A stretch of DNA of 26,231 bases, taken from IMG/VR virus record IMGVR_UViG_3300042731_005304. One strand, given 5' to 3'. The DNA is from a virus. A model generated the notes under the pieces. The model was not told where the DNA came from. It made no database searches and was given only the letters and a program-made list of their open reading frames with translations. The position numbers were made by a program, and so were the translations under genes. This document shows positions 11,183 through 11,518 of this stretch, in pieces (position 1 is the stretch's first letter; every line of letters starts with the position of its first letter).

Positions 11183-11518
11183 CTAAAAATACTCTATACT
11201 CAAATTCTCTGGTCTCATTGCATCATCTACTGCCAGTTGGATTTCTCTTTCTAGCTTAACCTTGTCAAGCGTTAGTTCTGATGCTTTTATTCTCAGCCAT
11301 CTTTCAAAGTCTGGATGCTTGGTCAGCCTCTTAAAAGCATTGCGAAGATTTTGTTCCTTGCTTCTCTCTTCTTGTCCAGTGACTATCACATTGCTTTCTG
11401 GGTGTTTTATTCTGCAACAGTTTCTATGCTTATTCCTGTGCTGACCACCAGCACCAGAACCAGAGAACCAAGTAATCTCTAGGTCTTTCTTAGTTACTGA
11501 AAACAAAAGTTGTTTCAT
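11183..11518 (-). CDS. ArfB/YaeJ-like peptidyl-tRNA hydrolase (GGQ-motif ribosome rescue factor domain)
   Basis: [22 protein letters not shown] matches ArfB [44 protein letters not shown] matches [22 protein letters not shown]. Length is 111 aa. It starts 2 nt after tRNA-Thr(CGU). Confidence 0.65.
   Translation of the reverse strand: [111 protein letters not shown]

What the first reader, a model, noticed from the sequence alone, without database searches (positions are those of the whole stretch)
11183..11518. ArfB/YaeJ-like GGQ peptidyl-tRNA hydrolase encoded next to a tRNA
The [11 protein letters not shown] core and flanking blocks match the alternative ribosome rescue factor ArfB and the release-factor catalytic domain. 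The protein is short (111 aa) and appears to lack the long basic C-terminal tail ArfB uses to probe the mRNA channel. It may therefore act on a different substrate, such as peptidyl-tRNA in stalled 50S subunits or phage-specific stalled complexes. Together with the tmRNA it gives the phage two independent ribosome-rescue routes.
Basis: partly seen in the sequence, partly recalled or inferred. Interest (0 to 1): 0.65.

Follow-up and report, generated by a model that had tools for sequence, protein, structure and literature searches.

The report
Phage stand-alone GGQ release-factor domain
A large uncultured phage encodes a 111-residue protein that is just the catalytic "GGQ" domain of a bacterial translation release factor; it belongs to an already annotated but never tested phage family, is not an ArfB, and probably frees nascent chains from stalled host ribosomes.

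Summary
ORF 11183-11518 (-) encodes a 111-aa protein that passes Pfam RF-1 (PF00472, 58.9 bits, cut-off 35). GGQ lies at residues 24-26. A tRNA-Thr(CGU) ends 1 nt before the ATG, and a tmRNA lies 7.6 kb away.

The "ArfB-like" label is only partly right. The protein scores 27 bits against the ArfB model (cut-off 100). It lacks ArfB's 24-residue insertion and its basic tail: the C-terminal 44 residues carry net charge -3. By sequence and fold it is closest to domain 3 of RF1/RF2 and to mitochondrial mtRF-R.

It belongs to a large phage family:
- PHROG 3122.
- The "RF-1 domain peptide chain release factor" of more than 200 Bxz1-like mycobacteriophages.
- At least 655 clusters at 50% identity in metagenomes, nearly all 105-130 aa.
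- No conserved partner gene.
- 24 of 85 loci have tRNAs within 4 kb.

Most likely it is a codon-independent, ribosome-dependent peptidyl-tRNA hydrolase in a phage translation-maintenance kit. How it is recruited is unknown and cannot be ArfB-type.

Verdict: new member of a known but uncharacterised kind; moderate interest.

One side observation may matter. In three lineages the gene starts flush with a tRNA 3' end, and neighbouring ORFs have their stop codons inside tRNAs.

The parts
11183..11518 (-). ORF for the 111-aa stand-alone GGQ (RF-1 domain) protein; ATG at 11518-11516, TAG at 11185-11183
11441..11449 (-). GGQ tripeptide (residues 24-26) within [11 protein letters not shown]
   Evidence: Read directly from the sequence. 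G24 and G25 are invariant; Q is present in 112 of the 120 closest relatives.
11318..11503 (-). Core GGQ domain (residues 6-67): strands 14-18, 34-39 and 44-48, the GGQ loop, and helix 54-67. It aligns without gaps to RF2/RF1 domain 3.
11219..11314 (-). Long C-terminal helix (residues 69-100). The proximal part is basic with invariant F71 and W74; the distal part is acidic.
11186..11209 (-). Conserved C-terminal motif ENLSIEYF (family consensus ENLKIEY; N105 nearly invariant, E109 invariant). Role unknown.
11520..11593 (-). tRNA-Thr(CGU) with no encoded CCA. Its discriminator base is 1 nt from the ATG, so there is no room for a Shine-Dalgarno outside the tRNA.
11175..11185 (-). TAGGAGGAAAT: the stop codon of the GGQ gene overlaps the strong Shine-Dalgarno of the downstream secreted Endonuclease_NS gene (10416-11174).
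19077..19343 (-). Phage tmRNA (tag GEEQFLMAA*). Context: the second ribosome-rescue element in the window.

Best explanation
The gene encodes a minimal release-factor catalytic module. It consists of class-I release factor domain 3 (three-stranded sheet, GGQ loop, helix) followed by a helix of about 32 residues and a short conserved acidic C-terminal motif. It has no codon-recognition domain, no GTPase-interacting domain, no ArfB/ICT1 insertion and no basic tail.

It belongs to a large, apparently phage-restricted, single-gene family: PHROG 3122, the 'RF-1 domain peptide chain release factor' of Bxz1-like mycobacteriophages.

The most likely mechanism is inferred from the conserved GGQ-domain motifs and from what GGQ domains are known to do. 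The protein enters the A-site side of the peptidyl-transferase centre of host ribosomes. There the GGQ loop positions water to hydrolyse peptidyl-tRNA without reading a codon, freeing nascent chains and recycling ribosomes and tRNAs that stall during infection. It would be one tool in a phage translation-maintenance kit that in this window also holds 10 tRNAs, a tmRNA, a Thg1-like tRNA repair enzyme, a pol-beta nucleotidyltransferase and a ligase.

Shown here: domain identity, family membership, architecture, lack of ArfB features, and lack of a conserved partner gene.

Inferred: catalytic activity on ribosomes.

Unknown: recruitment. With an acidic distal C-terminus, the protein cannot probe the mRNA channel as ArfB does. 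I favour substrates whose A site is freely accessible, namely 50S-peptidyl-tRNA complexes or 70S ribosomes with an empty A site. Recruitment may go through a host protein.
For: Domain identity:
- PF00472 above cut-off.
- Gapless alignment of residues 7-65 to RF2/RF1 domain 3, keeping GxGGQHxN, xxxRIxH, SG and RSxxQN.
- AF2 model with pLDDT 86 and the beta-GGQ-beta-beta-alpha topology.
- Best Foldseek hits are RF1/RF2 bound to 70S, then mtRF-R, PrfH, ArfB and ICT1.
- The family profile's best PDB hit is mtRF-R (8.8e-13), followed by RF2 (5e-12).

A family under selection:
- 395 homologues of 107-126 aa.
- 655 50%-identity clusters at E<=1e-10.
- At least 507 relatives in IMG/VR.
- Invariant G24, G25, N29, R36, H39 and N57.
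- GGQ kept in 112 of 120.

Phage context:
- 206 mycobacteriophage records annotate the same family.
- L019 has portal and Mu-F head genes next to it.

Translation theme:
- tRNAs and tmRNA in the window; Thg1-like, NTase and ligase.
- 24 of 85 loci have a tRNA within 4 kb, and 3 have a tmRNA.
- PTH2 lies nearby in L013 and L017, and RtcB plus a tmRNA in prophiGD54-2.
- Published note that an RF-1-domain gene, Pth and tmRNA sit in mycobacterial tRNA arrays (PMC5966550).

Single-component: no neighbour family is shared by more than 9 of 85 loci.
Against: - No experiment exists for any member of the family (literature searches).
- ArfB truncated of its basic tail neither binds ribosomes nor hydrolyses peptidyl-tRNA (PMC3061065). 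A tail-less GGQ domain therefore has no obvious ribosome anchor.
- The distal C-terminus is acidic family-wide (median net charge -4), which is unsuited to rRNA binding.
- 8 of the 120 closest relatives have GGM, GGS or GGG in place of GGQ, or no recognisable motif. Catalysis may therefore not be the conserved function in every member.
- 61 of 85 loci have no tRNA within 4 kb. In Bxz1-like phages the gene sits between DNA polymerase and RecA, so the link to tRNAs is not general.
Confidence: 0.6

Rival explanations
1. mtRF-R-like large-subunit rescue. The protein acts only on split 50S subunits that still carry peptidyl-tRNA. A host S4-domain protein (RqcP/YabO or Hsp15, the bacterial counterparts of MTRES1) holds it there, and it releases the chain. 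This would supply the 'missing' bacterial release factor for such complexes. It is a specific version of the best explanation.
For: - The family profile's top PDB hit is mtRF-R in the split mitoribosomal large subunit (7a5h_C, E=8.8e-13, profile positions 6-111).
- The architecture is the same: a GGQ domain without the ArfB/ICT1 insertion, plus a C-terminal helix.
- Hsp15 and RqcP occupy the MTRES1 site, and the bacterial release factor for these complexes is stated to be unknown (PMC9757039).
- On a 50S complex no 30S-binding tail would be needed.
Against: - The match to mtRF-R beyond the GGQ domain is between charged helices of opposite net charge: +8 for mtRF-R against -3 here.
- No S4-domain gene was seen in the window or as a conserved neighbour.
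- Nothing here was tested on ribosomes.
Confidence: 0.2
2. Non-catalytic or inhibitory role. The domain acts as a decoy or blocker. It could occupy the A site/PTC to pause or shut off host translation, or titrate a host factor that recognises RF domain 3, such as the GGQ methyltransferase PrmC. It would not act as a hydrolase.
For: - 8 of the 120 closest relatives lack the glutamine (GGM x5, GGS, GGG, one unrecognisable).
- There is no ribosome-anchoring tail, and the C-terminus is acidic.
- PrmC binds RF1 mainly through domain 3; a solved complex appears among the fold hits (2b3t_B).
Against: - GGQ is kept in 93% of relatives, together with the flanking RF motifs that contact the PTC.
- From established knowledge (not tested here): RF variants with Gly, Ser or Ala in place of the Gln still hydrolyse, so Q-less members need not be inactive.
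- Co-occurrence with tmRNA, tRNAs, PTH2 and RtcB fits maintenance better than shut-off.
Confidence: 0.12
3. A genuine ArfB/YaeJ orthologue. It would sense an empty mRNA channel with its C-terminus and rescue non-stop 70S ribosomes in the same way as ArfB.
For: Similar size, a GGQ motif near the N-terminus in the same register, and weak ArfB hits (27.2 bits; BLASTP 2e-07 over the core).
Against: - It fails the ArfB model (27 bits against 100).
- It lacks the 24-residue insertion and the basic tail.
- RF1/RF2, mtRF-R and PrfH all score better.
- The tail is essential for ArfB.
Confidence: 0.04
4. A decaying fragment of a captured full-length release-factor gene with no function of its own.
For: Only domain 3 of an RF is present.
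Against: - Hundreds of homologues share the same length and have invariant functional residues and a conserved family-specific C-terminal motif.
- Codon usage is coding-like.
Confidence: 0.02

Closest known systems
PHROG 3122 / 'RF-1 domain peptide chain release factor' of Bxz1-like (cluster C) mycobacteriophages (e.g. ScottMcG gp204) and M. abscessus prophages (prophiGD54-2 gp125)
   Same: - Full-length homology: 33-40% identity over residues 1-110.
- Same size and the same GGQ core.
- Same F..W motif and the M.P.NLK.E motif.
- The phages carry many tRNAs and a tmRNA.
- In prophiGD54-2 the gene also starts flush with a tRNA.
   Different: - The mycobacterial members carry an extra C-terminal ...EDGKWVE... 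segment that the window's subfamily lacks.
- In Bxz1-like phages the gene lies among replication genes, not tRNAs.
- None has been characterised experimentally.
Domain 3 (GGQ domain) of class-I release factors RF1/RF2
   Same: - Best sequence hits (B. subtilis RF2 4.6e-9, gapless over residues 7-65) and best fold hits.
- Same spacing between GGQ and the RSxxxN motif.
- No insertion.
   Different: - No domain 1 and no domain 2/4, so no PxT/SPF codon reader.
- 48 bits against a cut-off of 370 for prfB.
- It cannot recognise stop codons.
Mitochondrial mtRF-R (C12orf65), which with MTRES1 rescues split large subunits carrying peptidyl-tRNA
   Same: - A stand-alone GGQ domain without the ICT1/ArfB insertion, plus a C-terminal helix.
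- Top PDB hit for the family profile (8.8e-13).
- Foldseek E=4.6e-4 over 113 columns.
   Different: - The mtRF-R helix is strongly basic (+8 over 41 residues); this one is acidic at its end.
- No MTRES1-like partner gene was found.
ArfB/YaeJ and mitochondrial ICT1
   Same: A small, codon-independent GGQ protein, with the GGQ loop in the same N-terminal register.
   Different: - ArfB has a 24-residue insertion after the second strand.
- ArfB has a flexible linker and a Lys/Arg-rich tail that binds the empty mRNA channel and is essential for activity.
- All three features are absent here.
- The ArfB model scores 27 bits against 100.
PrfH (RF-H), paired with the RtcB ligase for rescue of damaged ribosomes
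   Same: - A truncated RF homologue with GGQ (37.8 bits; PDB 9mor 1.9e-8).
- An RNA-repair neighbourhood in some loci: RtcB beside the gene in prophiGD54-2, and ligase, Thg1 and NTase in the window.
   Different: - PrfH keeps a domain 2/4 that reads the damaged decoding centre; this protein has none.
- Below the PrfH cut-off (37.8 against 166.65).
- There is no RtcB in the window.

Membership tests
Pfam RF-1 (PF00472) / GGQ peptidyl-hydrolase domain superfamily | Score above the curated gathering cut-off | tested here: met
   58.9 bits against a cut-off of 35, E=6e-16, residues 6-68
Pfam RF-1 (PF00472) / GGQ peptidyl-hydrolase domain superfamily | GGQ tripeptide on a loop between the first strand and a short helix, with the beta-beta-beta-alpha fold | tested here: met
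   GGQ at residues 24-26. The AF2 model has strands 14-18, 34-39 and 44-48 and helix 54-67. Foldseek matches RF1/RF2 domain 3 with probability 1.00.
Pfam RF-1 (PF00472) / GGQ peptidyl-hydrolase domain superfamily | Ribosome-dependent peptidyl-tRNA hydrolysis | not testable with these tools
   Needs biochemistry. No published assay for any family member was found.
PHROG 3122 (phage stand-alone RF-1 domain proteins) | Full-length match to the family profile, and homology to its annotated members | tested here: met
   E=1.2e-17, residues 2-93 against profile positions 21-112 of 136. 98% query coverage against 209 phage records.
ArfB/YaeJ (NCBIfam NF006718) | Score above the equivalog cut-off (100 bits) | tested here: not met
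   27.2 bits; best stretch residues 7-32 only
ArfB/YaeJ (NCBIfam NF006718) | ArfB/ICT1-type insertion between the second and third strand of the GGQ domain | tested here: not met
   Alignment and BLASTP against authentic E. coli K-12 ArfB show a 24-residue gap in the phage protein.
ArfB/YaeJ (NCBIfam NF006718) | Lys/Arg-rich C-terminal tail that binds the vacant mRNA channel | tested here: not met
   Residues 68-111 have net charge -3. The family's distal C-terminus has median charge -4. The tail is required for ArfB activity (PMC3061065).
Class-I release factors RF1/RF2 (TIGR00019/TIGR00020) | Full-length architecture with domain 1 and the codon-recognition domain 2/4 (PxT or SPF) | tested here: not met
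   41-48 bits against cut-offs of 370-423. Only model positions about 218-282 are matched. The protein is 111 aa.
PrfH (TIGR03072) | Score above the cut-off, a retained domain 2/4, and an adjacent rtcB | tested here: not met
   37.8 bits against 166.65. No RtcB in the window. RtcB is adjacent only in the distant relative prophiGD54-2.
mtRF-R / C12orf65 | GGQ domain without insertion, plus a C-terminal helical extension | tested here: met
   Profile hit at 8.8e-13 over profile positions 6-111; helix 69-100 in the model
mtRF-R / C12orf65 | Basic C-terminal extension, and an S4-domain partner (MTRES1) on the split large subunit | tested here: inconclusive
   The extension is not basic. No S4-domain gene was found in the window or as a conserved neighbour. 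A host RqcP/Hsp15 partner cannot be tested here.

The most novel reading that the evidence does not exclude
Tail-less GGQ proteins of large phages are the bacterial-virus counterpart of the mitochondrial arrangement. The phage transcribes tRNAs and ORFs as one unit.

- Excision of the tRNAs by RNase P and RNase Z leaves messages without stop codons. In this window three ORFs have their stop codon inside the next tRNA.
- It also leaves messages without leaders. The GGQ gene itself starts 0-1 nt after a tRNA in three lineages.
- The GGQ protein is then a decoding-centre-independent hydrolase. It releases untagged products from these programmed non-stop complexes, or from 50S-peptidyl-tRNA complexes held by host RqcP/Hsp15. 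That would fill the 'unknown release factor' slot.
Probability: 0.15. Interest if true: 0.75.

Novelty: new member of a known kind. Interest (0 to 1): 0.4.

Why it matters
Stand-alone GGQ proteins studied so far all carry a device that tells them which ribosome to attack: ArfB and ICT1 have a basic tail, PrfH has a domain 2/4, and mtRF-R has MTRES1. This phage family has none of the known devices. Yet it is abundant (hundreds of 50%-identity clusters) and conserved.

Working out its substrate would have three uses. It would show a new way of targeting a release-factor catalytic domain. It would say what kind of translational damage large phages have to repair, whether from host defence nucleases or from their own tRNA-punctuated transcripts. 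It might also identify the missing factor that releases chains from bacterial 50S-peptidyl-tRNA complexes.

For this window alone the result is modest: a further, divergent member of an annotated family.

Tried and rejected
- **Close DNA relatives among cultured phages:** none (megablast). RNR and Thg1-like proteins gave only distant hits and no host assignment.
- **Conserved partner gene:** I clustered all ORFs within 3.5 kb in 85 distinct loci. Apart from the antisense artefact of the gene itself, the best cluster covers 9 loci and is a DNA methyltransferase. The basic-tailed 151-aa ORF just upstream, which I considered as a tail supplied in trans, is not found next to any relative and has no Pfam or PHROG hit.
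- **Cellular homologues:** the genome-contig scan returned only canonical release factors. This scan uses exact peptide patterns and has limited sensitivity.
- **Homology of the C-terminal ENLKIEY motif to RF elements:** by eye it resembles the IRSYVL/IRTYNF strand that follows domain 3. MAFFT instead aligned it to the C-terminal helix of RF1, and HMM alignments to RFs stop near profile position 83. I make no claim either way.
- **Listeria, Staphylococcus, Salmonella and Acinetobacter 'phage' hits:** these are partial matches to full-length RF1/RF2 on fragmentary or contaminated records, not family members.
- **The afdb50 fold library:** not available.
- **The promoter scan:** found fewer sites than in shuffles and is not informative.
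- **Literature:** searches found no functional study of the family. Burroughs & Aravind 2019 do not list it.

Full report
**1. What is in the sequence**

The minus strand carries an ORF from 11518 (ATG) to 11183 (TAG) that encodes 111 residues. The protein reads [30 protein letters not shown]..., with GGQ at residues 24-26 (nt 11441-11449). It matches Pfam RF-1 (PF00472) at E=6e-16 with 58.9 bits, above the curated cut-off of 35, over residues 6-68. Codon usage is coding-like in this frame and in none of the other five.

tRNA-Thr(CGU) occupies 11520-11593 on the same strand (ARAGORN; Rfam 69.3 bits). A tmRNA lies at 19077-19343. Residues 68-111 carry net charge -3, against +8 for residues 1-67.

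**2. Which GGQ protein it is**

Against NCBIfam the best matches are the domain-3 segments of prfB (48.4 bits) and prfA (44.3 bits), followed by prfH (37.8 bits). The ArfB model gives 27.2 bits (cut-off 100) over residues 7-32 only.

Against PDB sequences:
- B. subtilis RF2 aligns without gaps over residues 7-65 and on to residue 91 (E=4.6e-9).
- C12orf65/mtRF-R aligns over residues 5-68 (about 1e-6).
- ArfB chains align only over residues 10-38 (E about 0.015).

I fetched authentic E. coli K-12 arfB and aligned it. ArfB has a 24-residue insertion after the second strand and a Lys/Arg-rich tail, and the phage protein has neither.

An AlphaFold2 model built on a 39-sequence family alignment has mean pLDDT 86. 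Its elements are strand 14-18, a low-confidence GGQ loop, strands 34-39 and 44-48, helix 54-67, a long helix 69-100, and a C-terminal coil. The best Foldseek hits are RF1 and RF2 bound to 70S ribosomes (1.7e-5 and below). They are followed by mtRF-R (4.6e-4), PrfH (5.2e-4), ArfB (2.5e-3) and ICT1 (3.6e-3).

With the family profile, the best PDB hit becomes mtRF-R in the split mitoribosomal large subunit (7a5h_C, 8.8e-13, profile positions 6-111). RF2 follows at 5e-12. The part of that alignment beyond the GGQ domain is charged helix against charged helix and carries little information. The mtRF-R segment has net charge +8, whereas the phage one is acidic.

In short, this is release-factor domain 3 plus a helical extension. 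Its architecture is mtRF-R-like, and it is not an ArfB.

**3. It is a member of a large phage family**

- PHROG 3122, 'RF-1 domain peptide chain release factor', matches at 1.2e-17 over almost the full length.
- tblastn against cultured phages finds 209 full-length matches at 33-40% identity. These are 206 Mycobacterium phages, almost all Bxz1-like myoviruses, plus M. abscessus prophages, all annotated 'RF-1 (domain) peptide chain release factor'. The other hits in that search are partial matches to full-length RF1/RF2.
- In metagenomic protein collections there are 395 word-index hits, nearly all 107-126 aa. There are 655 50%-identity clusters at E<=1e-10.
- IMG/VR holds at least 507 relatives.
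- A pattern scan of one genome per prokaryotic species found only canonical release factors.

In the alignment, G20, G24, G25, N29, R36, H39, N57, F71, W74 and E109 are invariant. The consensus is [56 protein letters not shown]..WL ... V.EAM..ENLKIEY.

The glutamine is present in 112 of the 120 closest relatives. A small clade has GGM (5), GGS (1) or GGG (1).

The charge pattern holds family-wide. The GGQ domain has median net charge +7 and the distal C-terminus median -4.

More distant members, including the mycobacterial ones, extend the C-terminus by ...EDGKWVE.... I could not establish what the C-terminal motif corresponds to in full-length release factors.

**4. Genomic context**

The window is a run of minus-strand auxiliary genes from a large, uncultured phage with no DNA match to cultured phages. 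The genes are:
- a major-vault/SPFH-like protein;
- two thymidylate-synthase-like genes;
- a DHH phosphoesterase, an isochorismatase and ClpP;
- a secreted Endonuclease_NS immediately downstream of the GGQ gene;
- a class-V aminotransferase, an HNH endonuclease and a ribonucleotide reductase;
- the tmRNA;
- NT5C, a pol-beta nucleotidyltransferase and a radical-SAM enzyme;
- a Thg1-like tRNA(His) guanylyltransferase and an ATP-dependent ligase;
- ten tRNAs.

Across 85 distinct family loci, no neighbouring protein family recurs in more than 9 loci. The gene therefore travels alone.

tRNAs lie within 4 kb in 24 of 85 loci and within 1 kb in 13. Three loci hold a tmRNA. In Bxz1-like phages the gene sits between DNA polymerase III alpha and RecA, with no tRNA nearby. 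Translation- or RNA-repair genes do turn up beside it repeatedly:
- PTH2 in L013 and L017;
- RtcB plus a tmRNA and 21 tRNAs in prophiGD54-2;
- a ligase in L016.

The presence of an RF-1-domain gene, Pth and tmRNA in mycobacterial tRNA arrays has been noted in print, without functional work (PMC5966550). A survey of release-factor paralogues lists RF1/2, ArfB and PrfH but not this family. It also notes that ArfB is absent from Firmicutes (PMC6514570).

**5. How it most likely works**

*Shown:* the protein is a conserved, single-gene GGQ domain that keeps the motifs through which RF domain 3 engages the peptidyl-transferase centre.

*Established knowledge:* GGQ domains have no catalytic residues of their own. 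They act only inside the ribosome, positioning water at the peptidyl-tRNA ester.

*Inference:* the protein enters the A-site side of host ribosomes and hydrolyses peptidyl-tRNA without reading a codon. This releases stalled chains and recycles ribosomes and tRNAs during infection, alongside the phage tmRNA.

*Unknown:* recruitment. ArfB shorn of its tail neither binds ribosomes nor hydrolyses (PMC3061065), and this family's distal C-terminus is acidic. An ArfB-type probe of the mRNA channel is therefore excluded. The options that remain are:
- complexes whose A site is wide open, namely 50S-peptidyl-tRNA complexes, for which the bacterial release factor is stated to be unknown and where Hsp15/RqcP occupy the MTRES1 position (PMC9757039);
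- docking through a host protein that recognises the conserved C-terminal motif.

A non-catalytic decoy role cannot be excluded. The Q-less clade is the main argument for it.

**6. A side observation that may bear on function**

The ATG of the GGQ gene is 1 nt from the discriminator base of tRNA-Thr(CGU), which has no encoded CCA. There is thus no Shine-Dalgarno outside the tRNA, whereas many of the window's genes have AGGAG-type sites.

- A second ORF (9955-10212) starts in exactly the same way after tRNA-Thr(GGU).
- In L012 (68% identical protein) the GGQ gene starts 0 nt after tRNA-Asp, and its stop codon overlaps the next tRNA.
- In prophiGD54-2 (33% identical) it starts 0 nt after tRNA-Asp.
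- Three window ORFs with coding-like codon usage have their stop codons 10-23 nt inside the following tRNA.
- Seventeen such cases occur among 151 tRNAs in the family loci.

If these regions are transcribed as units and the tRNAs are excised, the result is leaderless and stop-less messages, as in mitochondria. That would give the phage a home-made need for stop-codon-independent release. This is a hypothesis only. No transcript data exist, the numbers are small, and most family loci have no tRNAs.

**7. Verdict**

The finding is real, and its factual part is correct. The label should be 'stand-alone RF domain-3/GGQ protein of the phage PHROG 3122 family (mtRF-R-like architecture)', not 'ArfB-like'. 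It is a new, divergent member of a known, annotated but experimentally untouched family. Interest is moderate. The family poses a real question: how is a GGQ domain with no known targeting device aimed at the right ribosomes? This particular copy adds little beyond the flush tRNA junction.

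Noticed in passing
window 11516-11520 and 10210-10214 (-); L012 4927-5324; L011 5920-6333: Two window ORFs start 1 nt after the 3' end of a tRNA-Thr: the GGQ gene and the 85-aa ORF 9955-10212. Both junctions read ...GGCT-T-ATG-AAA. The GGQ gene also starts 0 nt after a tRNA-Asp in two other lineages. There is no room for a Shine-Dalgarno outside the tRNA, which suggests leaderless mRNAs made by tRNA 3' processing or translation controlled by tRNA folding.
   Followed up: partly
window 5434-5444, 9597-9606, 11571-11593 (-): Three ORFs with coding-like codon usage (130, 126 and 151 aa) have their stop codons 10-23 nt inside the next tRNA gene. 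RNase P cleavage would leave their messages without a stop codon. There are 17 similar cases among 151 tRNAs in related phage loci.
   Followed up: partly
window 694-3375 (-); L011 1-189: An 893-aa protein has major-vault-protein shoulder, vault-repeat and SPFH/Band-7 domains, which is unusual for a phage. A band-7-like protein also lies about 1.2 kb upstream of the first tRNA of the array in prophiGD54-2, with four small genes in between.
   Followed up: no
window 21576-25871 (-): A cluster near the tmRNA looks like a tRNA/RNA repair set: a pol-beta-type nucleotidyltransferase, a radical-SAM enzyme, a Thg1-like tRNA(His) guanylyltransferase (PHROG 4717, 9.5e-86) and an ATP-dependent ligase.
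   Followed up: partly
window 10416-11174 (-): A DNA/RNA non-specific endonuclease (PF01223, 1.6e-55) with an apparent N-terminal signal peptide lies directly downstream of the GGQ gene. Its AGGAGG Shine-Dalgarno overlaps the GGQ stop codon. A related nuclease is also near the GGQ gene in L044.
   Followed up: no
window 3615-4433 and 4442-5335 (-): Two adjacent, divergent thymidylate-synthase-like genes (Pfam E about 1e-7 each). They may be dNMP hydroxymethylase-type enzymes for DNA base modification. One is shared with L005 (45% identity).
   Followed up: no
P0040, P0055, P0062, P0064, P0074, P0090, P0093 (e.g. L006 8001-8378): A clade of the family has GGM, GGS or GGG instead of GGQ, together with NKNAH in place of HRNKH, on phage contigs of 200-250 kb. 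P0088 has no recognisable motif at all. Either catalysis tolerates the change or these members have a different role.
   Followed up: partly
L013 3307-3726; L017 3707-4243; L011 6548-7873; L016 5398-6207: Peptidyl-tRNA hydrolase 2 (PTH2) genes lie about 1 kb upstream of the GGQ gene in two phage contigs. In others an RtcB-like RNA ligase or an ATP-dependent ligase lies immediately downstream.
   Followed up: no
window 12472-12493 (-): A strong terminator-like hairpin (8 pairs, 6 G-C, T-run) overlaps the predicted TTG start of ORF 12274-12495. That ORF probably starts further in, and a transcription unit may begin just upstream of tRNA-Thr(UGU) at 12267.
   Followed up: no
window 8044-9278 (-), 13433-14752 (-): Isochorismatase-family, ClpP-like protease and class-V aminotransferase (cysteine-desulfurase-like) genes are interspersed with the tRNAs. 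This auxiliary metabolic content is typical of very large phages.
   Followed up: no
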